64,000 nt of DNA, from positions 13,217 to 77,216 of the forward strand of contig NZFP01000003.1 of the NCBI GenBank assembly GCA_002689325.1, given 5' to 3'. Origin of the DNA: Rickettsiales bacterium. GTDB lineage: Bacteria; Pseudomonadota; Alphaproteobacteria; Methylaequorales; Methylaequoraceae. Positions within the stretch are counted from its first letter, which is position 1, and every line of letters begins with the position of its first letter. Below are positions 1-12,982 of the stretch, piece after piece. A program made the position numbers and the translations under genes. The notes under the pieces are model-generated. The model searched no databases. It was not told the origin of the DNA and saw only the letters and a list, made by a program, of their open reading frames with translations.

Positions 1-2
1 CC

Positions 3-2585
3 TTCAGATAAATCGTCCCATAACCATATAGCGCTGTTTGTACCATCGCCCACAACAAGAAAAACTTCACTGCCTGTTCCACTTGTAGAATCGGTATATT
101 TTATTGAAGAGACGATGCCTGATCTAAATGACTTTGTATTATAGTTATTAGTATTTTCTGTGAAATTAAATAGGTAGGGTAATTTATTATCACTTCCTAC
201 AGACGAAGTTGAGCTTGTTCCTAATCCAGTAGAACTACTTGTTGGTGAAATACTAAGATTTAATACAAAATCACCTCTTGTGCTTGAATTTCTGTTATAA
301 GGTGCATCTTCAACTAAAAGATAAAATGACTCTGTTGTACTAGTAGTGTAAGTAAAATATGAATCCTCTGTTCCAGAACTACCTGCACCTCCTAAAGAAA
401 TAGCAGAATCGTCATTTTCAGCTACAATAGAAGATAAAGCTTGATTCCACATTGTTACATAAGAATTAAAATCTATACTATAAGAATCACCATAGTCTAT
501 ATCAACAGTTAGCGTCTCGCCAGCTTGTAGGTCTACTTTAAAAATATCAATACCATTATTGATGTATCCACCTTGTATTTTTACCCATGGAATACTATCA
601 TCACCAACATCCGAATTTGTGGCTATTTTAAATCTTGACCTTGCAATTACTTGAGCAGAACCAAAAGTACCATTTGGTTCTGTTTCATTAACTGTTTGTG
701 CAGTTGTTGATGGTTTTGAGTCCCATGAAAGAGAAGATACCGAAGCAGTGCTAGTATATTCATAAAAGTCCGACCTTGTTACAGAGTGAGTTGAGACTGG
801 TTCATCAAAAGTAAAATTAATTGTAAGTGTTTGAGACAAAGAGAAATCAGAAATTGTTCTTCCAAAGTCACTAACTCCGTTAATGTAAAAAGAATTAATT
901 TCAGATGTTTCTGTTTCTTCTTCTTCCATAATAACATTATACAAACTAGGGTCATCAAAGAAAAAAGACTCTTGAAATACTTCAACTTCAGGTTGCGAGT
1001 ATATGTCACCAAAAGATGGTCCTATAGGCGCTCCAAGTAAATCAATTGCAGCTGTTGCTAAAGGTCCTCCGATAGCTGCTGGTCCAGCCGGACCACTCAT
1101 CATATCTGCTGGACCTGTTGATACTGACATCATTCCTGGATAGGAGCCAGGAGCTCCACTTGCAATTATAGCATTTATGGGAGCTATCATTGGATTAGCA
1201 TTTCCAGCCATTGGGTTTGATATAGAATTAGGATTATTTGATTCAATTGAATTTGCCTGTCCTGGGCCATCTAATCCTGCGACTTCAGCTGCCTCAGCCA
1301 TAGCTTGCTCGGGACTAGCACCTGCAGCAAGTGCAGTATCAAAAGCTTCTGCTGCAGCAACTTGTTCCTCTACTGATGCTGACTCTTCTCCAGTAGACGA
1401 TATCTCACCCTCTGGGGATCCACCTGCTCCCTCATCACTTGGTAATGAGTCTCCATCAGAATCTGAAATTGGTCCCTCTTCTCCTTCACCTTCAGGTGGA
1501 CCTTCTTCACCCTCACCTTCTCCTTCAGGAAGACCTTCTTCACCCTCACCTTCTCCTTCTTCAGAACCTTCTTCTGCAACTTGTTCTTCACCACCTTCTT
1601 CTTCAACTTCTTCTTCTGCAGCCTCCTCTTCTTGAGTCTCCTCCTCTTGTGTTTCTTCCTGAGGTGGTGGAGCAGATTGTGGTTGTGGTGCTACCGCTGG
1701 AGTTGGTGGTAATACATTAAGTGCAGAACCATAGTTAGCTTGAATCTGTGCTGCTGATAAAATAATTGGTGCTGGAGGCGCTGCGGTAAAACTTGAAACA
1801 CTGGTTGTAGCTCCCACCTGAGCTAAAACTTGCGTACCTCCATCATTACTTACAGAAATTTGTCCAACCCCACCGTCCGCATCTTGAAGTAACGTAAAAC
1901 TATTTTCATTTCCCTCAACAGCTGCTTTACCAGCAACAGTTGTTCCTCTAATTCCCATTGTAACAACAGGAGTTTCAAGAGTCATGGCATCAGGCCCAGT
2001 TTTTGCTATTTCACCACTTATAAAACTAAATGCTCCTTCAACCATATTTACCACCATGCTACCTGTTGCCGTTGCTGCATCAAAAACCAACTCATCCAAA
2101 ATCATCTTTCCTCCATCAGATAGAGAAAATGTTGTTTTATCTAAAAAAACTAAACCTACAGCTCCAGAGCCCTCGGTCTCAATGGTGTCTCCTTGGAAAA
2201 CAGGGTCTCCAACACTTAAATTAGTGGTTGTACCATCTAATCTTGTTGCTTTTGCCGATCCAGAAACTGTTGAAACTTCACCAATAGAAAGAACATTGCC
2301 ATCAGTAGCTTGAGCGTATTGCCCTTTTGCTAACGGACCTGCTAAATAATCTACAGTATTACCTTTAAGTTGAAGGCCATTTTCAGTGTATATGTTTGGT
2401 AGTTCAAAATTAGTAAAATAATCAACTAATGTGAGCTTCTCACCATTTGGAGATGTTGCTATTAAATCAGTATTGTTTCTAGAAAAATCAGATTTTAATA
2501 GCCAAGAAGGAAGATTATTTACTGCTGTTGAGTTTCCAGCATAAATTGATTCAGATAAATTGTTAGAAACTTTGGTGTTATACAT
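3..2585 (-). CDS. Secreted modular protein, paralog A (partial; C-terminus runs off the left window edge): FecR-like N-domain, acidic Glu/Pro/Gly spacer, PPC-like domain, T1SS-style tail
   Basis: Absent from the ORF track because it has no stop inside the window. I translated the minus strand by hand over 2281-2585 and 3-1740, and checked positions 3-242 triplet by triplet for stops. I found none. The stretch 1741-2280 was inferred from the paralog and from the absence of any track ORF in this frame (861 codons if open throughout). The N-terminal ~330 aa is mostly identical to ORF 2811..5930, e.g. AGPLAKGQYAQA.DGN.LSIGEVSTVSG.AKATRLDGTTTNL..GDPVFQGDTIETEGSGAVGLVFLDKTT. The C-terminal part reads NETEPNGTFGSAQ...DIFKVDLQAGETLTVDIDYGDS...AENDDSAISLGG...ESFYLLVEDA...GDFVLNLSI, a pre-peptidase C-terminal (PPC)-like pattern. 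Confidence 0.85.
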   Translation of the reverse strand, partial: MYNTKVSNNLSESIYAGNSTAVNNLPSWLLKSDFSRNNTDLIATSPNGEKLTLVDYFTNFELPNIYTENGLQLKGNTVDYLAGPLAKGQYAQATDGNVLSIGEVSTVSGSAKATRLDGTTTNLSVGDPVFQGDTIETEGSGAVGLVFLDKTTFSLSDGGKMILDELVFDAATATGSMVVNMVEGAFSFISGEIAKTGPDAMTLETPVVTMGIRGTTVAGKAAVEGNENSFTLLQDADGGVGQISVSNDGGTQVLAQVGATTSVSSFTAAPPAPIILSAAQIQANYGSALNVLPPTPAVAPQPQSAPPPQEETQEEETQEEEAAEEEVEEEGGEEQVAEEGSEEGEGEGEEGLPEGEGEGEEGPPEGEGEEGPISDSDGDSLPSDEGAGGSPEGEISSTGEESASVEEQVAAAEAFDTALAAGASPEQAMAEAAEVAGLDGPGQANSIESNNPNSISNPMAGNANPMIAPINAIIASGAPGSYPGMMSVSTGPADMMSGPAGPAAIGGPLATAAIDLLGAPIGPSFGDIYSQPEVEVFQESFFFDDPSLYNVIMEEEETETSEINSFYINGVSDFGRTISDFSLSQTLTINFTFDEPVSTHSVTRSDFYEYTSTASVSSLSWDSKPSTTAQTVNETEPNGTFGSAQVIARSRFKIATNSDVGDDSIPWVKIQGGYINNGIDIFKVDLQAGETLTVDIDYGDSYSIDFNSYVTMWNQALSSIVAENDDSAISLGGAGSSGTEDSYFTYTTSTTESFYLLVEDAPYNRNSSTRGDFVLNLSISPTSSSTGLGTSSTSSVGSDNKLPYLFNFTENTNNYNTKSFRSGIVSSIKYTDSTSGTGSEVFLVVGDGTNSAIWLWDDLSE
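1000..1660 (-). repeat. Low-complexity acidic/Pro/Gly spacer of paralog A
   Basis: My translation reads PPPQEETQEEETQEEEAAEEEVEEEGGEEQVAEEGSEEGEGEGEEGLPEGEGEGEEGPPEGEGEEGP, then a helical island (AFDTALAAGASPEQAMAEAAEVAGL), then a Gly/Pro/Met/Ala-rich stretch. The plus-strand and alternate-frame ORFs listed here are shadows of this composition. Confidence 0.8.
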
Positions 2586-2607
2586 ACTGCAAAAGACTAT
2601 TTTTTTT

Positions 2608-2628
2608 CCACAGTTTAATAAACTGTGG
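2608..2628. promoter_or_regulatory. Perfect 9-3-9 palindrome CCACAGTTT-AAT-AAACTGTGG upstream of paralog A; candidate operator or 5' UTR hairpin
   Basis: Arms read directly at 2608-2616 and 2620-2628. It lies 23-43 nt upstream of the ATG at 2585. On the minus strand a TTGACA (2645-2640) sits 17 nt before a weak TTTATT that overlaps the palindrome. On the coding strand the hairpin is followed by A8, not T, so it is not a canonical terminator. Confidence 0.4.
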
Positions 2629-2810
2629 ATATATTAGAATGTCAAGGTTTACTTAACTAAATTTAAGCGGAAATCTTTCTAAAATGTTTTTTTTGCAGTT
2701 ACTTTAAAAGTCGATACAAGGTATATTATACAAATTATTTTTGAGAATGCAACTATGCTAATAATTCAGAAAAAATCTGGAATGCAATACAGCTGATTAC
2801 TTTTTTTGAA

Positions 2811-5800
2811 TTACAAGTTTCCAAAAGCAACGTTAGCTGCTGTCATACTATCATTATCATAACTATTAAGTGTAGCTAAACGAACTAACTCAGTCTGCTC
2901 AACAGTACCATTAGTTCCACTATTTTCCCATCCCCAGATACTAGTGTTACCAGAATTTCCAGTTACAATAAGAGCATCTTCAACAGTTGAAATATCAGTG
3001 CTACCATCAGTTGTAATTCTAAAATTACTTAGGAAGTTTGAAACACCAGCAGAAGCAGTGTGATTTGCATTATTAGCTGTAAAGTTAAAAACAATTGGAA
3101 GGTTTCCACTGCTAGCATTAATATTATATACAGAACCATTAGCGCCGTTATCAGATTCAAAAGTTACTGATCTTGAATAATTGTTTGTAAAATTATATCC
3201 AAATTTTAAAGTATCAGCTGCACTAAAAGTTCTTATTGTATCAGCACCCTCCAGAAAATCAGAAAAGTAATAAGTATCACTTCCACCATTTCCGGTTAAA
3301 TCATCAGCTCCTAAGCCACCAAAAAAAGTATCATTACCGCTTCCCCCTTTAAAAGAATCATTACCGCTAAAACCATCAAATCGCCAAGCATCTGATGATG
3401 TTGATTTATCTTCAGAGTCATCATTATTAGTACCAGTTATAGTATTTCCACTTCCTGATCCACTTCCGCCACCACCATTTTCCTCCTCTTCCTCTTCAAA
3501 AAGTTCCGGTTCAAAAAAGCCCATATATAGTGAAGGATCATCAAAAAAATAATTCATAGGTTCTACATAGTTTTCAGAGCCACCCATCATAGGACCACCA
3601 AAAGGATCAGGTCCAAAACCGCCAGGTCCTCCAGGTCCACCCATCGGACCACCAAAAGGATCAGGTCCAAAACCGCCAGGTCCTCCATAAGGATCAGGAC
3701 CAAAACCTCCAGGACCACCCATTGGGCCACCAAGAGGATCACCAAAACCTCCAGGACCGCCCATATGACCACCCATTGGACCACCCATTGGACCAGCATA
3801 AGGATCAGGTCCAAAACCTCCAATAGGGCCTGATGTAAAACCACCTATTGGTGAGCCAAATGCTCCAACTGGACTAAATGTGGCCGCTCCAGGAGGTTGA
3901 GCACCCATAAATTGTCCAGGAACCATGCCACTGGGGCCACCAGTCCCAAAATCTCCAGGACCGCCAAAACCACCAGGGCCACCAGGTCCAAAATCTCCAG
4001 GACCACCTGGACCGCCAAAACCGACAGGTCCTCCCGGACCACCAAATGGGTCACCAGGTCCTCCAGGTCCACCTGGGCCGCCAAAGGGATCACCAAATCC
4101 ACCAGGGTCACCAAATGGGTCACCAGGTCCTCCAGCGCCACCTGGACCACCAAAGGGATCACCAAATCCGCCAGGTCCACCTGGACCGGCAAAGGGATCA
4201 TCAAATCCACCAGGGCCACCAAAAGGATCACCAAAATCTCCAGGACCACCAGGTCCAAAATCTCCAGGACCACCAGGTCCAAAATTTCCAGGCCCTCCAG
4301 GGCCACCAGGTCCAAAACCTCCAGGAGGTGAAGGTAAACCAGCGGCTTCTGCTGCTGCTGCCATAGCTTGCTCTGGGCTTAATCCGTCTGCTAAAGCTGT
4401 CTCAAACGCCTCTCTTGCAACTTCTTCTTGTTCAGGCGATGGTCCGCCAGGTCCACTGAAATCAGCCGAACCGCCAGGTCCAAAGTCACCGGGACCACCT
4501 TCTCCAGATGGTAAGGGTTCTCCATCTGGTCCAAGGGGTGGGCCGCCTTCACCGGGTCCTAAGGGTTCTCCATCCGGACCAATTGGAGGACCACCTTCTC
4601 CAGGTGGTAAGGGTTCTCCATCTGGTCCAAGGGGTGGACCGCCTTCTCCAGGTGGTAAGGGTTCTCCATCCGGACCAATTGGAGGACCACCTTCTCCTTC
4701 AGCTAATACTTCTCCATCAGGTCCAACTGGTGGGCCCTCTTCACCTTCAGGAGGACCACCTTCTTCTCCTTCAGGAGGACCTTCACCTTCAGCAAGAGGC
4801 TCTCCGTCAGGTCCAACTGGTGGGCCTTCTTCTCCTTCAGGGGGACCCTCTTCTCCTTCACCTTCTTCTGCAGGACCTTCCTCAGTTACTTGTTCTTCAC
4901 CGGCTTCTTCTTCACCTTCTTCTTCAGCAGCTTCTTCCTCTTGAGCCTGTTCTTCCTGAGCTTGTTCTTGGGGAGGTGGCGCAGCTTGAGGCTGTGGTGC
5001 TACCGCTGGAGTTGGTGGTAATACATTAAGTGCAGTACCGTAATTAGCTTGAATCTGTGCTGTAGTTAAAATTACTGGTGGTGGTGGTGGTGCAGTAAAA
5101 CTTGAAATACTTGTTGTTGCACCAACTTGAGCTAAAACTTGTGTTCCTCCATCGTTACTTACAGCGATTTGTCCAACTCCTCCATCTGCATCTTGAAGTA
5201 AAGTAAAACTGTTTTGATTTCCTTCAACAGCTGCCTTTCCAGCAACAGTTGTTCCTCTGATACCTATAACTGCAACTGGTGTTTTAACTGACATTGCATC
5301 AGGTCCGGTTTTAGCTATTTCACCACTAACAAAACTGAAAGCACCTTCAAGCATATCAACAGCCATACTACCCGTTCCCGTTGTTGCATCGTAAACTAAC
5401 TCGTCTAAAACCATCTTTCCTCCATCGGATAGAGAAAGTGTCGTTTTATCTAAAAAAACTAAACCTACAGCTCCCGAACCTTCTGTTTCAATAGTATCAC
5501 CTTGAAAAACTGGGTCTCCTGCATTTAAGTTGGTAGTTGTTCCGTCTAATCTTGTTGCTTTTGCTGTTCCAGAAACAGTGGAAACTTCACCAATAGAGAG
5601 AATATTACCATCAGCAGCTTGGGCATACTGACCCTTCGCTAAAGGACCAGCTAGTGACCTTACAAGAGAACCATTTAAAAGCAAACCGTTTTCAGTTAAT
5701 AAAGACGGTAATTCAAAATTACTAAAATAATCAATAAGTATGACTTGATCACCATTATCAGATGTTGCAATTAAGTCACTGTTATTTCTTGAAAAATTAG

Positions 5801-5930
5801 ATTTTGGTAACCAAGAAGGTAAGTTTTCTATCTTAAGAGAATTACCCGAATAAAGGTTTAGTGCTTTGGGTTGACTGTTTGCTAATGAGTCATCGTTAAA
5901 TTTATCAGTAAAGTTAATTTCTTTTAACAT
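2811..5930 (-). CDS. Secreted modular protein, paralog B (1039 aa): FecR-like N-domain, very long Glu/Pro/Gly/Phe/Asp repeat region, four RTX nonapeptides, T1SS-style tail
   Basis: Single uninterrupted 1039-aa ORF. The N-terminus has no hydrophobic signal peptide. The FecR-like core is GDPVFQGDTIETEGSGAVGLVFLDKTTLSLSDGGKMVLDELVYD...GAFSFVSGEI...VKTPVAVIGIRGT (about 5210-5590). The RTX block is GFSGNDSFKGGSGNDTFFGGLGADDLTGNGGSDTYY. The C-terminal tail is ALIVTGNSGNTSIWGWEN...AANVAFGNL. Confidence 0.9.
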   Translation of the reverse strand: MLKEINFTDKFNDDSLANSQPKALNLYSGNSLKIENLPSWLPKSNFSRNNSDLIATSDNGDQVILIDYFSNFELPSLLTENGLLLNGSLVRSLAGPLAKGQYAQAADGNILSIGEVSTVSGTAKATRLDGTTTNLNAGDPVFQGDTIETEGSGAVGLVFLDKTTLSLSDGGKMVLDELVYDATTGTGSMAVDMLEGAFSFVSGEIAKTGPDAMSVKTPVAVIGIRGTTVAGKAAVEGNQNSFTLLQDADGGVGQIAVSNDGGTQVLAQVGATTSISSFTAPPPPPVILTTAQIQANYGTALNVLPPTPAVAPQPQAAPPPQEQAQEEQAQEEEAAEEEGEEEAGEEQVTEEGPAEEGEGEEGPPEGEEGPPVGPDGEPLAEGEGPPEGEEGGPPEGEEGPPVGPDGEVLAEGEGGPPIGPDGEPLPPGEGGPPLGPDGEPLPPGEGGPPIGPDGEPLGPGEGGPPLGPDGEPLPSGEGGPGDFGPGGSADFSGPGGPSPEQEEVAREAFETALADGLSPEQAMAAAAEAAGLPSPPGGFGPGGPGGPGNFGPGGPGDFGPGGPGDFGDPFGGPGGFDDPFAGPGGPGGFGDPFGGPGGAGGPGDPFGDPGGFGDPFGGPGGPGGPGDPFGGPGGPVGFGGPGGPGDFGPGGPGGFGGPGDFGTGGPSGMVPGQFMGAQPPGAATFSPVGAFGSPIGGFTSGPIGGFGPDPYAGPMGGPMGGHMGGPGGFGDPLGGPMGGPGGFGPDPYGGPGGFGPDPFGGPMGGPGGPGGFGPDPFGGPMMGGSENYVEPMNYFFDDPSLYMGFFEPELFEEEEEENGGGGSGSGSGNTITGTNNDDSEDKSTSSDAWRFDGFSGNDSFKGGSGNDTFFGGLGADDLTGNGGSDTYYFSDFLEGADTIRTFSAADTLKFGYNFTNNYSRSVTFESDNGANGSVYNINASSGNLPIVFNFTANNANHTASAGVSNFLSNFRITTDGSTDISTVEDALIVTGNSGNTSIWGWENSGTNGTVEQTELVRLATLNSYDNDSMTAANVAFGNL
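3267..3374 (-). repeat. Four consecutive hemolysin-type Ca-binding (RTX) nonapeptides, GGxGxDxUx
   Basis: Codon-level reading gives GFSGNDSFK / GGSGNDTFF / GGLGADDLT / GNGGSDTYY. Confidence 0.85.
3587..4960 (-). repeat. Multi-tier low-complexity coding repeats in paralog B
   Basis: Tiers from the N-terminal side: poly-acidic QEQAQEEQAQEEEAAEEEGEEE; a 16-aa unit GEGGPP[IL]GPDGEPL[PG][PS] in about 4 clean and 2 variant copies (about 4490-4830); a helical island; GPGGPGDFG / GDPFGGPGG units (about 3925-4335); and GGFGPDP[YF]GGPMGGPGG units (about 3590-3850). Line 4021-4080 counts 41/60 G+C. Confidence 0.9.
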
Positions 5931-5941
5931 TAAATATAAAA

Positions 5942-7276
5942 TTAGTTTTCAACATTTTTTGGTTGCATTAACTGAACGCTATCTAAAGTAAGTCCTCCCA
6001 TTAAACTTAGTAAAGTGTAACTATTTATTAAAACCTCAATTTTTGCTGCTATGGCATCAGCTTGTGCATTTATGAATGCTGTTTCACCATTAAGAACATC
6101 TAAGAGTGTTCTATTACCTGCTTGTCTTTCTGTTCTTGCAAGCTCTAAAAATTCACTTGAAATTCTAGCTTGGTTTGTAAGAAACTGCGCATTTTTCTGA
6201 GCAGTTAATAAACCGTCCCAAGTAGTTCTTAGCATTTGTTTAATCATTGATTCTTGATCCCTTATCCTGGTAGACGTTGCTAAATAAGATTCAACTGCAG
6301 CTTCCTTACCAGCGTATTCAGACAAGCTTAAATTAAGCGGATAGGAAAAATCAACCTTTGCAGAACTTTCTCTTTTAAAACCCACTATTCCTCCAAAATC
6401 TTGTTTCTCAGAATGACTTATTATACCTTTAACGGTTGGAAACAACGTTGCTTTTGCTGTATTAATTCCTTCCTTACTAATTTCTTCAGTAATTCTCGCA
6501 GCTACTAATGAGGGATTTTTTTTCATTGTTAATTTTTCAGCCTCGTCAAGAGATTTGGGTAAAGAATCAAAAACAGATTGTAAGAGAAGAAGACTATTTA
6601 GATTTTTTGGAAAAATTTCAAAAACATATTCAAATTCGTGTTTTGCTGCAGATAAAACACCTTCAAATTGAATTTGTCTTGCTTGAGCACCTGCCAATTG
6701 AGTTTTGGCTTGAAGTACATCAGATGTTAATCCACCACCAGCAGAAACAGCTGCATCTTCTAATTCTGTTTGTTTTTTAATATTCGCAACTGATTGAATA
6801 GCGTATTTTACACTTTCTCGTGACTGAATTACTCTTAAATAAGCAGTTATGGCTCTCAGCAAAATATCATTCTTAATTTGATTTTCCATTGCTCTTGATT
6901 GTTTAAGCGACAACTTCGATGTTTTAACGGTTGATCTTGTAAGACCAAAATCTGTTATTGTTTGAGTTATCTTAGCAGTCGCATCTCTTGCGGCTAATTG
7001 CGTGTTGTTACCAGCACCATATTTAATAATATTTTCATGACCATAATTTGCAGTAACATCTAAAGATGGAAAAAAACCACCTCTAGACTGCTTTAATCTT
7101 AATTTAGCTGCCTCTACGTCATTTTTGGTGGCCTTTATCATCTTATGATTTCTTAAAACACTTTTAAGGGCGGAATCTAAATTAAAATACTCGATTTCTG
7201 GAGTGTTATTTTGATTTTCCTGACTTCCGGCAGAACTAAAACTTAGAACAAATATAAATAATATTAAAAGTCTCAT
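5942..7276 (-). CDS. tolC: TolC-family outer membrane efflux/type I secretion protein
   Basis: 444 aa with signal peptide MRLLILFIFVLSFSSAGSQ. It has the two-repeat OEP-type helical pattern (LKSVLRNHKMIKATKNDVEAAKLRLKQSRGGFFPSLDV...; LTSDVLQAKTQLAGAQARQIQFEG...). Its stop is 11 bp upstream of paralog B on the same strand. Confidence 0.85.
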   Translation of the reverse strand: MRLLILFIFVLSFSSAGSQENQNNTPEIEYFNLDSALKSVLRNHKMIKATKNDVEAAKLRLKQSRGGFFPSLDVTANYGHENIIKYGAGNNTQLAARDATAKITQTITDFGLTRSTVKTSKLSLKQSRAMENQIKNDILLRAITAYLRVIQSRESVKYAIQSVANIKKQTELEDAAVSAGGGLTSDVLQAKTQLAGAQARQIQFEGVLSAAKHEFEYVFEIFPKNLNSLLLLQSVFDSLPKSLDEAEKLTMKKNPSLVAARITEEISKEGINTAKATLFPTVKGIISHSEKQDFGGIVGFKRESSAKVDFSYPLNLSLSEYAGKEAAVESYLATSTRIRDQESMIKQMLRTTWDGLLTAQKNAQFLTNQARISSEFLELARTERQAGNRTLLDVLNGETAFINAQADAIAAKIEVLINSYTLLSLMGGLTLDSVQLMQPKNVEN

Positions 7277-7344
7277 AACAAAAAGTTACCCACAAACTTT
7301 ATATTGTGAATAAATATACGACAAAATACAATATTTTTTTAAAA

Positions 7345-8067
7345 TTAACACGATTTTTTTGACGAATCTAGGTATAAAGACTTATTATCTAAAAATTTTA
7401 AAAAACCAGAAAATAACTGTTTAGATCCTCCTTCAAACCTTAATTCATGCTTTAGTCTACTTGCAAATTCAACACCTACATCTAATCCAAACATAAGAGA
7501 TGCTAAAATGTCAGCATCTAAGATTATTTTTTGGACATGGTCATCAACTTTTTCTGGTTTGATTGGGAAATATGTACTTCTAAATATTTTTTTTATTCTT
7601 TGGTTTTTTTTAAAATTAGGTTTTGCTCTAAATAAATTTCTACTCAATTCACTAAAACTTTTTTCCTCTTGATAAAATGATTGATTTTGAATTCTTCTAC
7701 CCAAATGACCTAAATCATGCGTTAGTGCAATTATTATTAGTAGAAATTTATCTTCATTATTTTTTAAATTTGACAGTTTAGCTAGGAGACATGCAATAAT
7801 AATTACAGACTTAAAGTGATGTGAGTCATGATAAGTGTTGTAAGTTACATTTTTTGAACATAAAGCTGATAGTTTTTTTAAAATTGGTTTCATCTTATCA
7901 ATCTTGTGGACGTTCAAATCATTTAAGCAATTTAAACATAAGTTATATAAATCGGGAAGTTTGTGATTAGATAGGATAAATTTTTTAAGAACATCTTTAG
8001 TTCTCGGCCAATTATTAGCAATGTAAGATATTGAAGGAAAGTTTTTTTCAAAAGTGTAATTTCTCAT
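7345..8067 (-). CDS. HD-domain phosphohydrolase with class I cyclic-nucleotide-phosphodiesterase-like motifs
   Basis: 240 aa. Shows the H...HD...D pattern: YHDSHHFKSV, ALTHDLGHLGRRIQNQSF and LDADILASL. The HDxxHxG...NQ arrangement resembles the PDE class I signature with a 2-residue insertion. Its start codon overlaps the cyclase stop by 4 nt (8064-8067). Confidence 0.6.
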   Translation of the reverse strand: MRNYTFEKNFPSISYIANNWPRTKDVLKKFILSNHKLPDLYNLCLNCLNDLNVHKIDKMKPILKKLSALCSKNVTYNTYHDSHHFKSVIIIACLLAKLSNLKNNEDKFLLIIIALTHDLGHLGRRIQNQSFYQEEKSFSELSRNLFRAKPNFKKNQRIKKIFRSTYFPIKPEKVDDHVQKIILDADILASLMFGLDVGVEFASRLKHELRFEGGSKQLFSGFLKFLDNKSLYLDSSKKSC

Positions 8068-10376
8068 TTACTTTTCATGACCCAAACTCCATCCCAATTT
8101 TTTGGTTTTTCAGAAATGAGCTGGTTACATCTATCAATATAAGTTTCAGATAATTTATCTTCAGAGTTAATTTTTAGACATTCCTTAAATGAAGTAATTG
8201 CTTGATTAAAATCTCCAGAAATATATTTTTTTCTTCCTTCATTAAAATGATTCACTACATCCATAAGGTTAGGAAAGGTTTTTTCACTGTGATAATCCAA
8301 GACTTCATGAACTCCAACAGGTTCAGTTTTGCCCTTAACAACAACATCATCAATGTACCTTATCCTGTATGTGCCTTTCAGTTTTTTGAAGGTAAAATCA
8401 CTAATTAGAATTCTTGCGTTGTACTGCTTACATGCACTTTCAAGCCTAGCGGCAAGATTAACGCCATCACCAATCATCGTATAATCCATTCTTTTTTGCG
8501 ACCCAATGTTTCCTGCTACAATTTTATCAGTATTAAGCCCTAAGCCCATATCCAGGGGAGGTTTCCCATCTTTTTCTCTTTGGTCATTCCAGTCCCAAAG
8601 TCTTTTAATCATATTGATACCGGCTTTAACACCTCTATCCTCATCATCTTCATGAGAAATAGGCAATCCAAAAGCTGCCATAATTGCATCTCCAATAAAT
8701 TTATCAAGCATACCTCCTTGTTCAGAAATACACTCAACCATAATTTCAAAATATTCATTTAAAAGTTTTACTGTTCCTTGAGCACCCAAAGATTCTGTAA
8801 TATTTGTAAAACTTCTCAGGTCAGAAAATAAAAGTGTTGCAGTAGTGTCAAGCCCACCCATTATATCAGCACCATCTTCAAGTAATTGGTCTGCAATTCC
8901 AGGGTCCATATATCTTGACATTGTAGATTTCATTCTTTTTTCTGAAGAAATATCTTCAATCATTAATAGAATACCAAGAAAACTTTCTTTTTCGTCAGTT
9001 CTACCATCACTGTCTTCGTTAATTAAAGGTAATATTGTGAGGTTAACTGAAATAATTTCATTTTTTTCTGTTTCGTGATTAAAAACTTCTATTTCAGCAT
9101 CCATTATTAGTTCTGGTTCCTTAGAATCTCTTACTAAATTAATTTTTTCTTCAATCCATTGATTCTGCTCTATAAAGAATTTATTTGAATCTAAGCCTAT
9201 TAAGTTTTTTTCATTTACTTTAAAAATTTTAAGACCTGATTTATTACAAGTTACAATTTTTCCATCACCATCAATTGTAATTACCCCATTAGACATACTT
9301 GAAAGCATACTTTCATTATATTTTCTGGATTTCGAAACATCATCAAAAAGCTTTGCGTTCTCTAATGCAATTGCAACTTGCTGTGTAAAAGCTTTGAGTC
9401 TTGATTCATCTTCTTCAGTAAACTTCCCCCCTTTTTTGTTTAATACCTGAGTGCAGCCAATAACTTTACCATTTTTATTTGTTACGGGAACACATAAAAT
9501 TGATCTCGTAAAATACCCAGTTTGTTTGTCAAAGGCAGGATTAAACCTTAAATCAGCATAGGCATAAGGAATATTCATAGTTTTACCAGAAGTGAAAACA
9601 CTACCAGCAATACCCGCTGTGTTAGGTAATCTTATTTCCCCCATTCCTTCTCCCATTGCAACTCTAGAAAAAAGTTCATTTGTTTTTTCATCATTTAAAA
9701 ATAATGTAGCTCTATCTGCATTTAGCATTCTCGTTGCTTCTTCCATTACCCTTTTTAGAAGAGCACTTAAATCAATTTCAGCAGTCACATCTGAAACAAT
9801 ACTTATAAATTCCATTTCTTGAGCACGTTTTTTTTCGAAAAATTCGTTGTTTTGAGCATTTTGTATTGAAACTGCTGCTTGAGTAGCTACTGAATTAACA
9901 AATTCTAAGTTGTCCTTTGTAAACCTTCCTTTATTTTTATTTAATACTTGAATTACCCCAATAATTTTTCCATTAACAGTCCTGACTGGTGAACAAATCA
10001 TATTTTTTGTTTTATAACCTGTTTCCTGATCAACATCTTTGTTAAACCTTTCATCTAAATAAACATCATGAATAATCTCCCCAACTTGAGATTGAAAAAT
10101 ACCTCCTGCAATTCCAACTGTATTTAAAATTCTTATTTCTCTTGTCAAATCCCCTTGAGCAACTCTTGAATATAATTCATTAGTTTCTTCATCATTTAAA
10201 AATAATGTCCCTCTATCAGCATCAACATTTTTTGTAACAAACTCAACTATTGTCCACAGAATTTCTGAGAGGTTTTTAATAGAGGCAATTTTTCTTGAAA
10301 TATCTAGCAGTAATTTGGATCTACTTATCTCCGCCTTAAGAGTTTTAATATCTTCAGGTTTTTTATTTTTTTTCAT
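8064..10376 (-). CDS. GAF-GAF-PAS class III adenylate/guanylate cyclase with TPR-like tail (CyaB1/CyaB2-like architecture)
   Basis: Catalytic domain is about 8290-8850: LLFSDLRSFT, DKFIGDAIMAAFGLP, VAGNIGSQKRMDYTMIGDGVNLAARLES. Both metal-binding Asp residues and the Asn/Arg are present. The substrate positions are Lys (DKFIGD) and Thr (YTMIG), as in class IIIb adenylate cyclases. GAF-B carries an intact NK-x4-F-x3-DE motif (NKKGGKFTEEDE, about 9405-9440). GAF-A has NKNKGRFTKDNL. Confidence 0.9.
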   Translation of the reverse strand: MKKNKKPEDIKTLKAEISRSKLLLDISRKIASIKNLSEILWTIVEFVTKNVDADRGTLFLNDEETNELYSRVAQGDLTREIRILNTVGIAGGIFQSQVGEIIHDVYLDERFNKDVDQETGYKTKNMICSPVRTVNGKIIGVIQVLNKNKGRFTKDNLEFVNSVATQAAVSIQNAQNNEFFEKKRAQEMEFISIVSDVTAEIDLSALLKRVMEEATRMLNADRATLFLNDEKTNELFSRVAMGEGMGEIRLPNTAGIAGSVFTSGKTMNIPYAYADLRFNPAFDKQTGYFTRSILCVPVTNKNGKVIGCTQVLNKKGGKFTEEDESRLKAFTQQVAIALENAKLFDDVSKSRKYNESMLSSMSNGVITIDGDGKIVTCNKSGLKIFKVNEKNLIGLDSNKFFIEQNQWIEEKINLVRDSKEPELIMDAEIEVFNHETEKNEIISVNLTILPLINEDSDGRTDEKESFLGILLMIEDISSEKRMKSTMSRYMDPGIADQLLEDGADIMGGLDTTATLLFSDLRSFTNITESLGAQGTVKLLNEYFEIMVECISEQGGMLDKFIGDAIMAAFGLPISHEDDEDRGVKAGINMIKRLWDWNDQREKDGKPPLDMGLGLNTDKIVAGNIGSQKRMDYTMIGDGVNLAARLESACKQYNARILISDFTFKKLKGTYRIRYIDDVVVKGKTEPVGVHEVLDYHSEKTFPNLMDVVNHFNEGRKKYISGDFNQAITSFKECLKINSEDKLSETYIDRCNQLISEKPKNWDGVWVMKSK

Positions 10377-10379
10377 ATA

Positions 10380-11000
10380 TCAATCTTTCTTTAGTTTATT
10401 TTCATAGTTTTGTATTATTTTTTCTATCTCTTCTCTTAATTTTTGACTTGATGATTTAAGTTGTTGAATTTCATTATTTGAGTTAAGTACTGCATTTTGA
10501 ACAGCTTCCTTTTTTTCAAACTTCAAACTTTCAAGTTCGTTTCTTAAATCTGATATAGATAATTTTAATTCTTTTATTTCTTGACTAGATTCCAAAATAG
10601 CTTTTTGGACTGACTCTTGCTTATTAAATTTTAGGTTTTCAAGCTCATCTCTCAATGCTGTACAGGATTTTTTTAATTGATTAATTTCATCTGTAGAGGC
10701 TTGAATTTCTCTTTGAACAGCTTCTTTTTTTTCAAACTTAAGTTTATCTAATTGGCTTCTTTGTTCAGTTATTGTTAGTTGAAGTTGTTTGATTTCATCT
10801 GCTGTTTGAAGTATTGCATCTTGAATTTCTTTGTTTTTTAGAAATTGTTGATTTTCTAATTGATCTCTCAACGAACTTATTGTTGAGTGTAAATTAACTA
10901 ATTCATCGTTATTTTCAAGCCTAATTTTTTGTACAAAGTCATTAAATTCAGCAAGAAAAGCCGGCTTATCTTTTTTTAGTTTGTCTATTAAATTCGCCAT
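10380..11000 (-). CDS. Coiled-coil protein built from 36-aa repeats, function unknown
   Basis: 206 aa. Its stop is 3 nt before the cyclase start. The repeat consensus is L.(L/S).I..LR.ELE.LKF.K.E.VQ.A.L.S..EI.Q, with invariant Phe at residues 53, 89, 125 and 161. Confidence 0.75.
   Translation of the reverse strand: MANLIDKLKKDKPAFLAEFNDFVQKIRLENNDELVNLHSTISSLRDQLENQQFLKNKEIQDAILQTADEIKQLQLTITEQRSQLDKLKFEKKEAVQREIQASTDEINQLKKSCTALRDELENLKFNKQESVQKAILESSQEIKELKLSISDLRNELESLKFEKKEAVQNAVLNSNNEIQQLKSSSQKLREEIEKIIQNYENKLKKD
10416..10892 (-). repeat. 108-bp (36-aa) tandem coding repeat, 4 full copies plus a partial fifth
   Basis: Repeat units start at residues 37, 73, 109, 145 and 181 when counted on the given translation. 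Confidence 0.8.
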
Positions 11001-11028
11001 AACAAAAACTATAAATACATTTTAATAA

Positions 11029-11502
11029 TTAAAAATGATCTAAACAATGATAATATCTAATATTTTTCACTTTGGTTTTGTTAACTACTCTCCAGGAAAT
11101 TTTTCCCCCTACCTTAATGTCTAATTTTTTTACACATCCGTCAGGAATTTCAAGAACACCAATCACATGAGTGACTGAGGAAATTATTTTTTTGGAAAAT
11201 GGCTCCCCTTTCTTAATAAGGACAACTTTATTTTGATCATTTATAAAGATTATATCCAATGGAATTTGTGTATTGTGCATCCAAATTTTTACAATTTTAG
11301 GTTTTTTGTAAAGTAAAAGTAGTCCATTAGTTTTAGATAGTTTATTAACAAACATTAAACCTTTTTGTTTTTCTTCTTCAGTTTTTGCTAATTTAACAAG
11401 TAGGTTGGAGAATGTTTCTGAAAATACTATTGCTTCTTTGGAAATTGAATTTGAAGGCAAAATTATAAGAAACAGAAAAAAACTATAAAGTAAAAACCTC
11501 AC
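11029..11502 (-). CDS. DUF192 (COG1430) family exported protein
   Basis: Signal peptide MRFLLYSFFLFLIILPSNS. Also has QKGLMF...IWMHNTQIPLDIIFINDQNKVV, typical of DUF192. Confidence 0.7.
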   Translation of the reverse strand: MRFLLYSFFLFLIILPSNSISKEAIVFSETFSNLLVKLAKTEEEKQKGLMFVNKLSKTNGLLLLYKKPKIVKIWMHNTQIPLDIIFINDQNKVVLIKKGEPFSKKIISSVTHVIGVLEIPDGCVKKLDIKVGGKISWRVVNKTKVKNIRYYHCLDHF

Positions 11503-11728
11503 CTTTTTTAATTCTTTCTAATGTGACTTTTGCTTCGTCACTTAATTCAGTCTCTTCTTCTTTGGTGTTTTCAATAGATTCCAATGATAAATCATATTTT
11601 TCTCTTAATTGCCTAAAAACTTTTATTTCGTATGAATTTAAACCTTTTTCAAAATTTGATTTTGTTTTTTCTTTAATTAATTTTAACTTTTCTAAACGTT
11701 TAATACTTTTTGTAAGTCTATCTTTCAT
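11483..11728 (-). CDS. Hypothetical small charged protein (81 aa)
   Basis: ORF only. It overlaps the DUF192 start by 20 nt. I recognised no motif. Confidence 0.35.
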   Translation of the reverse strand: MKDRLTKSIKRLEKLKLIKEKTKSNFEKGLNSYEIKVFRQLREKYDLSLESIENTKEEETELSDEAKVTLERIKKGEVFTL

Positions 11729-11781
11729 TTATTTTTAACATTTATGTTTAATCTAATTATTTAGATTCTATAATATCGTTT

Positions 11782-11928
11782 ATGGATGAAAATGAAAATT
11801 ACTTATTAAAAATCAAAGATGAAATGGAAAGTGTCAGAGAATTATATATTAAAGGGTATATTGATAAAAAAATTTATCAAAAAGAAACAAGATCATTATT
11901 TGAAATAGCTGTAAAATATGGAGCATAA
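11782..11928 (+). CDS. Small SHOCT-like ORF (48 aa), below the ORF-track length cutoff
   Basis: Hand translation: MDENENYLLKIKDEMESVRELYIKGYIDKKIYQKETRSLFEIAVKYGA. The segment EMESVRELYIKGYIDKKIYQKET parallels EMAAVRELYVGGYISKGIYISET at the C-terminus of ORF 12150..12524. Confidence 0.35.
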   Translation: MDENENYLLKIKDEMESVRELYIKGYIDKKIYQKETRSLFEIAVKYGA

Positions 11929-12148
11929 AAAAAAAATTACTGATTTAAAAAAATCAATTGAAAAATTTAATGACTTTTCGACAAAAGAAAAGTCGTCACT
12001 TGTTGATTCCATTGAAATGTTATGGCTAAATGCAGGTATTCAAAAGAAAAAAAAGGACATAAAAATTGATGGAAATAATTCAAATGATCACATAAAAAGA
12101 ATCAGACAACTTTTATCAGCAGCATGGTCTGAAGACTTAAAAGATTAA
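11918..12148 (+). CDS. Hypothetical protein (76 aa)
   Basis: ORF only, no recognised motif. Confidence 0.3.
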   Translation: MEHKKKITDLKKSIEKFNDFSTKEKSSLVDSIEMLWLNAGIQKKKKDIKIDGNNSNDHIKRIRQLLSAAWSEDLKD

Positions 12149-12149
12149 A

Positions 12150-12524
12150 CTATAAACCAAAGATTTTTGCTTTTTCATAAAGCCTATCAGTTTCAGATAT
12201 ATATATTCCTTTACTTATATATCCTCCAACGTAAAGCTCTCTAACTGCAGCCATTTCCTCTTCAATAGCAGCTAAGACATCTATAAAATCGTTATCGTCA
12301 TTTATTTTTAGGTTATCTGAATCAATTATTTCATTTAATGACGGCTGCTTTCTTTCTAGTTTACTATTAGATTTTTTAAAAAATAATTTTAAAAGTAGAC
12401 TAAAAAATAAATAAATTAATAAAGTTAGAAAAACAAAAAATAATATTAGATATCCGGTATTGTCTAAATATACAACCAAAGACTCTAATTCAATTTTTTC
12501 CAAAGCTTTTTTAATAAAATCCAT
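12150..12524 (-). CDS. Single-pass membrane protein with SHOCT-like C-terminal motif
   Basis: Hydrophobic segment GYLILFFVFLTLLIYLFFSLLLKLFF. C-terminus AIEEEMAAVRELYVGGYISKGIYISETDRLYEKAKIFGL. Confidence 0.5.
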   Translation of the reverse strand: MDFIKKALEKIELESLVVYLDNTGYLILFFVFLTLLIYLFFSLLLKLFFKKSNSKLERKQPSLNEIIDSDNLKINDDNDFIDVLAAIEEEMAAVRELYVGGYISKGIYISETDRLYEKAKIFGL

Positions 12525-12579
12525 TTCAAAATCTACATATAGTGTTTGATTTTAATTTATAACACTTTATATTGTATTT

Positions 12580-12978
12580 ATGAGTTTATTTAAATTATAT
12601 AATAAATCAAAGAAAAGTATAAACAAATCCTCGATAAATTCAAAGTACGCAATTTCTTTTAAAGCTTACGAGTTGCTAAAAAAATTCATTGTTAGGAATG
12701 TTGTACAAGCTAGAATGTTAGATAATGCTTATCCAAAGAATACAAAATTAAATGTTCTGAAAAATGTTTCCCAAAGATCTATGCAAACTTTTTACAAATT
12801 ATCTGACAAATATCAAACTAATAAATCTGGTGTTCTTTCTCAATTTATTAGTTTTGAAGGCAAACGTCAAAAAAGGAAACTTTCACGAAAAGCAAAAGAC
12901 CTCCTTTTTAAGATCAAGAATGATCTACCCAGATATGAAAGTATTGACTACCTTATTAAAAATTTAAAAACAAAATAG
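12580..12978 (+). CDS. Hypothetical basic protein (132 aa)
   Basis: ORF only, Lys/Asn-rich, no recognised motif. Confidence 0.35.
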   Translation: MSLFKLYNKSKKSINKSSINSKYAISFKAYELLKKFIVRNVVQARMLDNAYPKNTKLNVLKNVSQRSMQTFYKLSDKYQTNKSGVLSQFISFEGKRQKRKLSRKAKDLLFKIKNDLPRYESIDYLIKNLKTK

Positions 12979-12982
12979 TAGT

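What the first reader, a model, noticed from the sequence alone, without database searches (positions are those of the whole stretch)
3..11728. Candidate new system: a cyclic-nucleotide module linked to a TolC-dependent surface or secreted fibril pair
Eight consecutive minus-strand genes form one block with gaps from -20 to 225 bp. In order they are a small ORF, DUF192, the coiled-coil repeat protein, the cyclase, the PDE-like HD protein, TolC, paralog B and paralog A. T1SS substrates are exported C-terminus first. In the Pseudomonas LapA/LapE/LapD/LapG system, a folded N-terminal retention module keeps the adhesin plugged in the TolC-like channel until a c-di-GMP-controlled protease releases it. 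By analogy, the conserved FecR-like N-domain could act as a retention plug. The disordered spacer would be the stalk and the PPC or RTX module the exposed tip, with cAMP/cGMP as the controlling signal instead of c-di-GMP. This is a hypothesis built only on architecture and adjacency.
Basis: inference. Interest (0 to 1): 0.75.

Follow-up and report, generated by a model that had tools for sequence, protein, structure and literature searches.

The report
cAMP-linked type I secretion fibril cluster
A marine alphaproteobacterium encodes two surface-fibril proteins with their type I export pump beside enzymes that make, break and sense cyclic AMP, and this pairing recurs in distant bacteria, which suggests a cAMP-controlled counterpart of the known c-di-GMP-controlled adhesin systems.

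Summary
The eight minus-strand genes exist exactly as described, with gaps of -20 to 225 bp. They are only the right half of a roughly 29-kb cluster.

A 99.93%-identical scaffold shows what lies left of the window. Paralog A is followed by a T1SS ABC transporter and a HlyD-type adaptor. A convergent operon then carries a CHASE2 adenylate/guanylate cyclase and two cNMP-binding proteins; sister genomes add a second exporter whose adaptor has a cNMP-binding domain.

The paralogs' conserved N-domain is FecR-like. It contains a segment homologous to the periplasmic TolC-plug domain of the Marinomonas ice adhesin (PDB 5IX9) and weakly matches the LapA retention module.

The window cyclase is of the Anabaena CyaB1/CyaB2 type, a cNMP-GAF, class IIIb adenylate cyclase. 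The HD protein has a class I PDE fold.

The full gene order holds throughout the low-GC clade. In other lineages, CHASE2-cyclase orthologs sit inside T1SS operons with giant FecR-N-domain RTX proteins: 23 of 43 lineage clusters have T1SS or N-domain neighbours.

The link between cyclic-nucleotide signalling and secretion is therefore real at the comparative level. The mechanism is inferred. No LapD/LapG analogue was found, and the PPC domain was not confirmed.

The parts
1..2585 (-). Paralog A. It is 894 aa in full; the last 33 codons and the stop lie left of the window. Layout: FecR-like N-domain, acidic/Pro-rich spacer, unassigned C-terminal domain, then a C-terminal region shared with paralog B.
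   Evidence: Translation. Full gene on L171 11943-14627. FecR 3e-4. retention_LapA 8e-6. No Pfam hit for the C-terminal 334 aa.
1722..2498 (-). Conserved N-domain of paralog A. The RIN/retention-like segment is at about 2088-2282.
   Evidence: phmmer map; NCBIfam stretch aa 102-166.
1275..1346 (-). Conserved helical motif AFDTALAAGASPEQAMAEAAEVAG in the spacer of paralog A.
   Evidence: Present in all close-clade paralogs. Fusing it in silico to the retention-like segment raises the retention_LapA score from 32.7 to 42 bits and extends the match to profile positions 4-119 of 145.
2811..5930 (-). Paralog B, 1039 aa. Layout: FecR-like N-domain, about 500 aa of Pro/Gly/Glu-rich low-complexity spacer, RTX repeats, C-terminal secretion region. 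There is no N-terminal signal peptide.
5031..5813 (-). Conserved N-domain of paralog B. It is an all-beta, FecR-like fold. The RIN/retention-like segment is at about 5400-5591.
   Evidence: AF2 model, pLDDT 84 and pTM 0.82. Foldseek hits to PupR/BDI_1681 FecR-type domains and to 5ix9. Profile hit to 5ix9_A at E=3.2e-9.
3531..5030 (-). Low-complexity Pro/Gly/Glu spacer of paralog B, the proposed stalk. It reaches 57% GC in a genome of 27-30% GC and carries internal DNA repeats. The motif AFETALADGLSPEQAMAAAAEAAG is at 4338-4409.
   Evidence: Composition, translation, repeats, motif.
3273..3377 (-). RTX nonapeptide repeats of paralog B.
   Evidence: HemolysinCabind 27.2 bits, above the cut-off of 23.
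2814..3194 (-). C-terminal region of about 125 aa shared by paralogs A and B. It is the probable T1SS secretion signal region.
   Evidence: Cross-hit between the A and B C-termini at 1e-8. Shared motif read directly from the sequences.
5942..7276 (-). TolC-family outer-membrane factor, 444 aa, with a signal peptide.
   Evidence: Pfam OEP 5e-50. TIGR01844 188 bits, below its cut-off of 225.
7345..8067 (-). HD-domain protein, 240 aa, with a class I cyclic-nucleotide phosphodiesterase-like fold. Its start overlaps the cyclase stop by 4 bp.
   Evidence: HD 4.5e-6 and PDEase_I 5.7e-3. All PDB sequence hits are class I PDEs, though weak. All top-50 Foldseek hits are PDE5/4/2/10/9. The H/HD/H/D metal-ligand pattern is invariant.
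8064..10376 (-). Cytoplasmic GAF-GAF-PAS class III cyclase, 770 aa, predicted to be a class IIIb adenylate cyclase of the Anabaena CyaB1/CyaB2 type. Sub-regions: GAFs 9342-10301, PAS 8937-9326, catalytic domain 8277-8891.
   Evidence: Pfam. GAF tandem against 1YKD at 1e-45. Catalytic domain against 2W01/3R5G, with Lys in DKFIGD and Thr in MDYTMIG.
10380..11000 (-). Coiled-coil protein, 206 aa, with four ~36-aa repeats. It is a conserved upstream partner of the GAF cyclase.
   Evidence: Orthologs lie directly upstream of GAF-cyclase orthologs in 10 distant loci.
11029..11502 (-). DUF192 protein, 157 aa, with a predicted signal peptide and so probably periplasmic. Its association with the cluster is clade-specific.
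   Evidence: Pfam 2.8e-25. No DUF192 hits in distant loci.
11483..11728 (-). Small Lys/Glu-rich ORF, 81 aa. It is conserved in the clade and marks the first gene of the block.
   Evidence: phmmer hits of 1e-8 to 1e-25 in L007-L013 and L088-L089. No family match.

Best explanation
The block is the right-hand operon of a two-operon, roughly 29-kb cluster that couples type I secretion with cAMP signalling.

Shown:
- Operon 1 covers the window plus about 3 kb to its left. In order it encodes a small ORF, periplasmic DUF192, a coiled-coil protein, a CyaB1-like GAF-GAF-PAS adenylate cyclase, a class-I-like PDE, TolC, two cargo paralogs, an ABC transporter and a HlyD-type adaptor.
- Operon 2 is convergent. 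It encodes TolC2, an ABC transporter with a C39-like domain, an adaptor with a cytoplasmic N-terminal cNMP-binding domain, a CHASE2 cyclase, two single-domain cNMP-binding proteins, DUF1538 and a P-II-like protein.
- The cargo N-domain is a FecR-like beta domain. It includes a homolog of the periplasmic TolC-plug domain of RTX adhesins.

Inferred:
- The paralogs leave the cell C-terminus first. Their disordered Pro/Gly/Glu spacer stays threaded through TolC. The folded N-domain of about 260 aa stays in the periplasm as a plug, so they act as short surface fibrils with variable tips.
- The periplasmic CHASE2 domain reads the state of this FecR-like plug, as FecR-CHASE2 gene pairs elsewhere suggest, and produces cAMP.
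- The GAF cyclase amplifies the signal through cNMP-binding GAF domains, as described for CyaB1, and the PDE resets it.
- cAMP then acts post-translationally on the cNMP-binding adaptor and the small receptors to gate secretion or retention.
For: - T1SS completeness. L001 and L171, 99.93% identical to the window, carry an ABC transporter (528 aa) and an adaptor (TIGR01843, 302 bits, above cut-off) directly after paralog A.
- Plug homology. 5ix9_A is hit at E=3.2e-9. Foldseek gives TMt 0.78 and rmsd 0.8 A. retention_LapA scores about 1e-5 in both paralogs, and 42 bits once the spacer motif is joined on. RIN is periplasmic and too large to pass through TolC (PMC5550230).
- Clade synteny. The full gene order is kept in L007-L015 and L088-L090, down to 52% identity of the HD protein.
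- Same-genome CHASE2 operon and its composition.
- Other lineages with the cyclase inside T1SS operons. L155, L149, L112 and L028 have ABC-MFP-CHASE2 cyclase(-TolC) plus a giant FecR+RTX protein, all on one strand. L116 has the cyclase between TolC-cargo and MFP-ABC.
- L017 has a cNMP-binding adaptor next to a giant N-domain protein.
- GAF-cyclase plus coiled-coil orthologs lie beside the CHASE2 cyclase and ABC-MFP in 14 loci, which fall into 6 clusters.
- 23 of 43 non-clade cyclase clusters have T1SS or N-domain neighbours, across loci of 33-69% GC.
- Enzyme assignments.
- FecR-CHASE2 gene pairs are known elsewhere (PMC5192318, PMC5498481).
Against: - About half of the CHASE2-cyclase orthologs have unrelated neighbours.
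- Only 2 of about 70 distant N-domain loci show a cyclase within 10 kb. Many of those cargo genes are over 3,600 codons long and fill the downstream flank, so this count is weak evidence either way.
- The HD/PDE, DUF192 and small ORF occur only in the window's clade. This is a streamlined lineage where synteny is generally conserved.
- The retention_LapA and PDEase_I scores are below the curated cut-offs.
- ABC1 lacks the C39-like domain typical of adhesin T1SS.
- Paralog A has no RTX repeats.
- cNMP_binding domains can bind other ligands. HetC, for example, binds ppGpp.
- There are no expression, localisation or binding data.
Confidence: 0.55

Rival explanations
1. The two modules are independent and merely adjacent. 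The GAF cyclase, PDE, coiled-coil protein and DUF192 form a general cAMP switch, perhaps sensing bicarbonate or energy status. They happen to sit beside a T1SS operon in a streamlined lineage with frozen synteny and do not control secretion.
For: - The HD/PDE, DUF192 and small ORF are never found with T1SS outside the clade.
- In distant N-domain loci, TolC is preceded by unrelated genes; L006, for example, has hfq, hflX and groESL.
- There is a 68-bp gap between the HD and TolC genes, and the promoter scan is uninformative.
- Class IIIb cyclases are general sensors (own knowledge).
Against: - The GAF cyclase plus coiled-coil protein recur next to the CHASE2 cyclase and ABC-MFP in six other lineage clusters, in different orders.
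- The CHASE2 cyclase is embedded in T1SS operons of the same ABC/MFP type.
- A cNMP-binding domain is fused to a T1SS adaptor.
- No intergenic terminator-like site lies within the block.
Confidence: 0.2
2. The paralogs are ordinary released T1SS exoproteins, for example matrix, S-layer-like or nutrient-binding proteins. The FecR-like N-domain then acts after release, or only as a periplasmic signalling ligand, and not as a plug.
For: - ABC1 is short (528 aa) and has no C39-like domain, like the exporters of released proteases and lipases (own knowledge of T1SS classes).
- No LapG/LapD genes lie in the cluster.
- retention_LapA scores are below cut-off.
Against: - Sequence and fold homology to the RIN TolC-plug domain.
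- The N-domain is the most conserved part of a family that is otherwise highly variable and often giant and adhesin-like, with RTX and Calx-beta domains.
- A folded beta domain of about 260 aa is larger than RIN, which already cannot pass through TolC.
Confidence: 0.15
3. This is a Lap-type system whose release step uses an unlinked LapG-like periplasmic protease. The protease would cut at the conserved Ala-rich motif in the spacer, and the cNMP genes would play only an indirect role, such as a transcriptional one.
For: - The conserved motif AF(E/D)TALAAG.SPE(E/Q)AMAEAA..AG occurs in every clade paralog.
- Joining it to the retention-like segment extends the retention_LapA match to profile positions 4-119 and adds about 9 bits.
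Against: - The motif alone gives no hit.
- It is largely absent from distant family members.
- No BTLCP/LapG or LapD gene lies in about 29 kb of the cluster or in the 64-kb window genes that were examined.
- The genome as a whole could not be searched.
Confidence: 0.1

Closest known systems
Lap system of Pseudomonas fluorescens (LapA adhesin, LapBCE T1SS, LapD/LapG) and the related Marinomonas MpIBP adhesin
   Same: - The cargo is exported by a T1SS.
- Its N-terminal beta domain is homologous to the RIN/retention plug.
- A TolC-family pore gene lies in the locus.
- RTX repeats and a C-terminal signal are present in paralog B.
- A nucleotide second-messenger system is encoded with the secretion genes.
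   Different: - The messenger machinery is cAMP-type (class III cyclases, a class-I-like PDE, cNMP-binding domains), not c-di-GMP.
- No LapD or LapG was found.
- The plug is a full FecR-like domain of about 260 aa.
- The stalk is a low-complexity Pro/Gly/Glu spacer rather than Ig-like repeats.
- The proteins are small (0.9-1.0 kaa).
- ABC1 lacks a C39-like domain.
- The retention_LapA score is below its cut-off.
FecR-domain protein / CHASE2 sensor gene pairs: the Burkholderia LysM-FecR + CHASE2 histidine kinase 'BiofilmReg' operon, and Sinorhizobium smc02177 (FecR) + cyaD1 (CHASE2 adenylate cyclase)
   Same: A FecR-domain extracytoplasmic protein is encoded with a CHASE2 sensor. In several loci it lies directly upstream of a CHASE2 adenylate cyclase (L110, L113, L130, L157). 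The published pairs are described in PMC5192318 and PMC5498481.
   Different: - Here the FecR-like domain is the N-terminus of a T1SS-exported protein, not of a Sec-exported periplasmic protein.
- T1SS genes are part of the neighbourhood.
- No paper linking CHASE2 with T1SS, RTX, TolC or HlyD was found.
Anabaena CyaB1/CyaB2 adenylate cyclases (GAF-GAF-PAS-cyclase; cAMP-binding GAF; a self-activating switch)
   Same: - The domain order is identical.
- The best PDB hit of the GAF tandem is CyaB2 (1YKD, 1e-45).
- The Lys/Thr substrate residues are those of class IIIb adenylate cyclases.
   Different: - It is encoded in an operon with a PDE, a coiled-coil partner and T1SS genes.
- Ligand binding and autoactivation are untested.
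cNMP-binding-domain ABC exporters, such as Nostoc HetC and the annotated 'cyclic nucleotide-regulated ABC bacteriocin exporters'
   Same: A cytoplasmic cNMP-binding domain is fused to a component of an ABC export machine. In HetC the domain is required for function (PMC10986499).
   Different: - Here the domain is on the HlyD-type adaptor, not on the ABC protein.
- The ABC partner has a non-catalytic C39-like domain.
- A cyclase is encoded in the same operon.
FecR/PupR anti-sigma regulators of cell-surface signalling
   Same: The fold matches the periplasmic FecR domain. Foldseek gives 6OVK at 2e-5 and 4M0N at 2e-5, and Pfam FecR is above cut-off in paralog B.
   Different: There is no anti-sigma domain, no transmembrane helix, and no ECF sigma factor or TonB-dependent transducer nearby.

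Membership tests
LapA-type retention-module T1SS adhesins (NCBIfam NF033682; Lap system) | N-terminal retention module scoring above the NF033682 cut-off of 50 bits | tested here: not met
   Both paralogs score 26 bits (E 6-8e-6). The isolated segment scores 32.7 bits, and the segment fused to the spacer motif scores 42 bits.
LapA-type retention-module T1SS adhesins (NCBIfam NF033682; Lap system) | Periplasmic beta-sandwich plug homologous to MpIBP RIN | tested here: met
   Profile against 5ix9_A gives E=3.2e-9. Foldseek gives TMt 0.78, rmsd 0.8 A and 31% identity over 62 columns.
LapA-type retention-module T1SS adhesins (NCBIfam NF033682; Lap system) | LapG (BTLCP protease) and LapD (c-di-GMP receptor) partners | tested here: not met
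   No such domains occur among the genes of the roughly 29-kb cluster. The rest of the genome was not searchable.
LapA-type retention-module T1SS adhesins (NCBIfam NF033682; Lap system) | Di-alanine LapG cleavage motif after the retention module | tested here: inconclusive
   A conserved Ala-rich motif sits about 200-300 aa downstream and extends the profile match when joined to the retention-like segment. It gives no hit alone.
Type I secretion system (ABC + MFP + OMF + C-terminal-signal cargo) | HlyD-family T1SS adaptor | tested here: met
   TIGR01843 scores 301.9 bits against a cut-off of 208.65.
Type I secretion system (ABC + MFP + OMF + C-terminal-signal cargo) | T1SS-type ABC permease/ATPase | tested here: inconclusive
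   The best hits are the LssB, PrtD and HlyB T1SS models (201, 165 and 160 bits), but all fall below their cut-offs. The protein has no N-terminal C39 or C39-like domain.
Type I secretion system (ABC + MFP + OMF + C-terminal-signal cargo) | TolC-family outer-membrane factor | tested here: met
   Pfam OEP scores 170 bits with two repeats. TIGR01844 scores 188 bits, below its cut-off of 225.
Type I secretion system (ABC + MFP + OMF + C-terminal-signal cargo) | Cargo with RTX repeats and a C-terminal signal, and no Sec signal peptide | tested here: met
   Paralog B has RTX repeats above the cut-off. A and B share a C-terminal region. Neither has an N-terminal hydrophobic signal, read directly from the sequence. 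Paralog A lacks RTX repeats.
FecR-type anti-sigma regulators | PF04773 domain together with an N-terminal anti-sigma domain, a transmembrane helix, and ECF sigma / TonB-transducer partners | tested here: not met
   The FecR domain is present (B 30.9 bits, above the cut-off of 24; A 21.6 bits, below it). No anti-sigma domain, transmembrane helix, sigma factor or transducer gene is present.
CyaB1/CyaB2-type class III adenylate cyclases | GAF-GAF-PAS-cyclase order, with cNMP-type GAFs and adenylate-cyclase substrate residues | tested here: met
   Pfam domain order. 1YKD at 1.4e-45, followed by PDE5/2/10 GAF domains. Lys in DKFIGD and Thr in MDYTMIG, read from the alignments to 2W01 and 3R5G.
CyaB1/CyaB2-type class III adenylate cyclases | cAMP binding to the GAF domain and autoactivation | not testable with these tools
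   This needs biochemistry.
Class I cyclic-nucleotide phosphodiesterases | PDEase_I profile above its cut-off | tested here: not met
   16.8 bits against a cut-off of 24.8.
Class I cyclic-nucleotide phosphodiesterases | PDE catalytic fold with H...HD...H...D metal ligands | tested here: met
   All top-50 Foldseek hits are PDE catalytic domains, with prob 1.0 and TMq 0.43-0.59. H80, H84, H117, D118 and H121 are invariant, and D184 and D186 are at least 90% conserved. The HDLGHLG motif aligns to the PDE5 HDLDHRG motif.
FecR-CHASE2 sensor neighbourhoods | A FecR-domain protein encoded beside a CHASE2-domain signalling protein | tested here: met
   The two are directly adjacent in L110, L112, L113, L130 and L157, and share an operon in L028, L149 and L155. 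In the window's genome they are about 9 kb and 7 genes apart.

The most novel reading that the evidence does not exclude
The FecR-like N-terminal plug of a T1SS-anchored surface fibril is the physiological partner of the orphan CHASE2 sensor domain. Fibril, TolC and CHASE2 cyclase would form an outside-in sensor of adhesion or load. The sensor converts the occupancy or pulling of the fibril into cAMP. A self-activating GAF cyclase amplifies that signal and a PDE resets it. The cAMP then gates a second T1SS through a cNMP-binding adaptor. This would be a cAMP-based, protease-independent counterpart of the Lap inside-out circuit.
Probability: 0.2. Interest if true: 0.9.

Novelty: new variant of a known kind. 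Interest (0 to 1): 0.7.

Why it matters
Second-messenger control of T1SS adhesins is known only for c-di-GMP (LapD/LapG and relatives). These loci point to a cAMP-based version that is spread across Alphaproteobacteria, including an abundant, streamlined, low-GC marine plankton clade where surface fibrils and dense signalling clusters are unexpected.

The finding also gives a concrete, testable candidate for what CHASE2 domains sense. Their ligands are still unknown, and here a FecR-like periplasmic domain is delivered by a T1SS cargo next to the sensor.

It further identifies a T1SS adaptor with a cytoplasmic cNMP-binding domain, which suggests direct nucleotide gating of a type I secretion machine.

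Cultured relatives carry N-domain family members (Novispirillum itersonii, Magnetospirillum, Terasakiella), so experiments are feasible.

Tried and rejected
- Rfam and tRNA scans of the window found nothing.
- Promoter and terminator scans of 1-13000 gave counts no different from shuffled sequence. All minus-strand terminator-like sites lie inside genes, so they say nothing about operon structure.
- Pfam at E<=1 on paralog A's C-terminal domain gave no hit, so the 'PPC' module is rejected.
- Pfam and NCBIfam gave nothing for the small ORF, for p98, or for the 137-aa L140 protein.
- An HD-family HMM found no members outside the window's clade, so reverse co-occurrence of the PDE could not be tested.
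- The Magnetospirillum XM-1 locus (L005) is a 392-aa fragment in an IS-rich region and is uninformative.
- A literature search for DUF192 returned nothing useful.
- Searches for CHASE2 together with T1SS, RTX, TolC or HlyD found no paper holding both.
- The last homolog search, with the cNMP-binding adaptor, listed only close-clade members. It did not show how widespread the fusion is.
- Neighbours of CHASE2 cyclases that lack T1SS hits were checked by Pfam and are unrelated housekeeping genes. The association is therefore partial, not universal.
- I considered and rejected a FecR anti-sigma role, because there is no transmembrane helix, sigma factor or transducer.
- I considered and rejected a bacteriocin-type exporter for ABC2, because its N-domain lacks the catalytic Cys context and resembles the HlyB C39-like domain. 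This rests on my own reading.
- The taxonomic placement of the clade beyond NCBI's label 'Rickettsiales bacterium' was not resolved.

Full report
**Observation**

- small ORF, 11483-11728
- DUF192, 11029-11502
- coiled-coil protein with four repeats, 10380-11000
- GAF-GAF-PAS-cyclase, 8064-10376
- HD protein, 7345-8067
- TolC/OEP, 5942-7276
- paralog B, 2811-5930
- paralog A, from 2585 off the left end of the window

The gaps are -20, 28, 3, -4, 68, 11 and 225 bp. Pfam confirms the domain calls. The exception is 'PPC': the C-terminal 334 aa of paralog A match nothing at E<=1.

The rest of the window is ordinary alphaproteobacterial chromosome: ClpB, TrkA, NtrX, a sensor histidine kinase (probably NtrY), NtrC, PyrG, TrpE, GltX and BamA. 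The source is a marine MAG that NCBI labels 'Rickettsiales bacterium', with 27-30% GC.

**What lies beyond the window**

A TARA scaffold (L001/L171) is 99.93% identical to window 1-14527. It shows that paralog A (894 aa) is followed by an ABC transporter (528 aa) and a HlyD-family T1SS adaptor (TIGR01843, 302 bits against a cut-off of 209). That completes a T1SS operon.

A second operon converges on it. It carries p98, a P-II-like protein, DUF1538, two single-domain cNMP-binding proteins and a CHASE2-Guanylate_cyc protein of 787 aa.

In sister genomes that operon begins with three further genes (L095 and L096):
- a second OEP
- an ABC transporter with a C39-like N-domain
- a 573-aa adaptor whose N-terminal cNMP-binding domain precedes its transmembrane helix and is therefore cytoplasmic

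**The cargo**

The paralogs' N-terminal regions (about 300 aa) are 78% identical. They belong to a family with at least 533 members in species-representative genomes, almost all of them Alphaproteobacteria. Many members are giant, with more than 3,600 codons, and carry RTX and Calx-beta domains.

The AF2 model of the N-domain is confident (pLDDT 84) and all-beta. Foldseek places it with the FecR-type periplasmic domains PupR and BDI_1681. It also superposes a 62-residue part on 5IX9 at 0.8 A rmsd.

An HMM of the family hits 5IX9 at E=3.2e-9. 5IX9 is RIN, the periplasmic N-terminal domain of the Marinomonas ice adhesin. RIN was shown to be too large to pass through TolC and was proposed to act as a plug (PMC5550230).

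Both paralogs also hit NCBIfam retention_LapA at about 1e-5, which is below its cut-off. A conserved Ala-rich helix motif in the spacer extends that match when joined to the retention-like segment in silico.

Membership in the Lap family, however, is not established.

**The cNMP enzymes**

The cyclase has the CyaB1/CyaB2 architecture. Its GAF tandem matches cAMP-binding CyaB2 best (1YKD, 1e-45), followed by the GAF domains of PDE5, PDE2 and PDE10. Its catalytic domain carries Lys and Thr at the substrate-defining positions, as in class IIIb adenylate cyclases.

The HD protein overlaps the cyclase stop codon by 4 bp and has invariant H/HD/H/D ligands. Its sequence hits are weak but are exclusively to class I PDEs. 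Its predicted fold gives only PDE catalytic domains among the top 50 Foldseek hits.

**Co-occurrence**

Within the low-GC clade the whole gene order is conserved, down to 52% identity of the HD protein. Upstream of the small ORF the context differs between genomes: umuDC in the window, and a rotamase and mfd elsewhere.

In distant lineages, N-domain genes recur with TolC, ABC and MFP genes but not with the GAF cyclase, the HD protein or DUF192.

The decisive result came from scanning metagenomes with the CHASE2 cyclase. Its orthologs at 39-54% identity come from loci of 33-69% GC. They are frequently flanked by T1SS genes, N-domain proteins and orthologs of the window's GAF cyclase with its coiled-coil partner. 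Specific arrangements:
- L155, L149, L112 and L028 have ABC-MFP-CHASE2 cyclase(-TolC)-FecR/RTX giant protein on one strand.
- L116 has the cyclase between TolC-cargo and MFP-ABC.
- L017 has a cNMP-binding adaptor next to a giant N-domain protein.

After clustering the cyclases at 70% identity, 23 of 43 non-clade clusters show T1SS or N-domain neighbours. Of these 43 clusters, 17 have ABC/MFP, 10 have TolC, 9 have an N-domain protein and 6 have the GAF cyclase. The remaining clusters have unrelated neighbours, so the link is frequent but not obligatory.

**Interpretation**

The best reading is a cAMP-coupled T1SS surface-fibril system. What is shown is the gene content, the homologies and the recurrent co-location. 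What is inferred is the following:
- the plug topology
- sensing of the FecR-like plug by CHASE2
- amplification and reset of the signal by the GAF cyclase and the PDE
- gating of secretion through the cNMP-binding adaptor

FecR-CHASE2 gene pairs are documented elsewhere (PMC5192318, PMC5498481). A cNMP-binding domain on an ABC exporter has a precedent in HetC, although that domain binds ppGpp in vitro (PMC10986499). I found no paper connecting CHASE2 with T1SS.

The rival readings cannot be excluded without experiments. They are independent adjacent modules, fully released exoproteins, and an unlinked LapG-type protease.

**Verdict**

The finding is a new variant of second-messenger-controlled T1SS adhesin systems. 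It is of substantial interest because it makes the function of CHASE2 and cAMP control of type I secretion testable.

Noticed in passing
window 11729-14914: Between the small ORF and the next conserved genes the window carries several short unassigned ORFs plus umuC (13195-14505) and a umuD/LexA-like gene (14510-14914). Sister genomes (L007, L088, L089) instead have a rotamase gene, preceded by mfd in L088 and L089, directly upstream of the block. This is a variable junction.
   Followed up: partly
window 3500-5030: The Pro/Gly/Glu spacer of paralog B reaches 57% GC in a genome of 27-30% GC and contains internal DNA repeats of about 80% identity. Database homologs of the N-domain are nearly all fragments of 530 aa or less, which suggests that assemblies or gene calls break in this repeat.
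   Followed up: partly
L171 17560-19933 (left of the window); L095 7872-10252: A DUF1538 membrane protein, a P-II-like protein and a 98-aa protein are conserved between the cNMP-binding proteins and the T1SS adaptor. The neighbouring cyclase is of class IIIb, a class that is often bicarbonate-responsive, so this might be a regulated transporter. Its function is unknown.
   Followed up: no
L017 7451-9058; L140 3300-4976: MotA/ExbB-like and MotB/OmpA-like gene pairs sit next to the ABC-MFP genes in two distant loci. This recalls the SiiA/SiiB accessory proton channel of the Salmonella SiiE adhesin T1SS (own knowledge).
   Followed up: no
window 8064-8100; L009 18989-19030: The GAF cyclase and the CHASE2 cyclase end with the same C-terminal motif, NWDGV(W/Y)V..SK, after a TPR-like segment. 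Their catalytic halves cross-hit at about 1e-45, so they are paralogous over the catalytic and C-terminal part.
   Followed up: no
L110 11602-13401; L126 6159-7415: GAF-HD_5 (HD-GYP-type) proteins lie next to CHASE2 cyclases in other lineages. They may fill the phosphodiesterase role that the clade-specific HD protein plays in the window.
   Followed up: no
L140 11682-17387: In a high-GC lineage the GAF-cyclase/coiled-coil pair is flanked by a stand-alone receiver domain and a PAS-GGDEF protein. This hints at cross-talk between cAMP and c-di-GMP signalling at these loci.
   Followed up: no
L090 2443-3252: In one SAG contig the OEP gene between the HD gene and the cargo gene is called as only 269 aa. 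This may be a frameshift or a truncated pore gene. Several long-read 'pilon' contigs (L007, L008, L088) show many frameshifted genes across the cluster.
   Followed up: no
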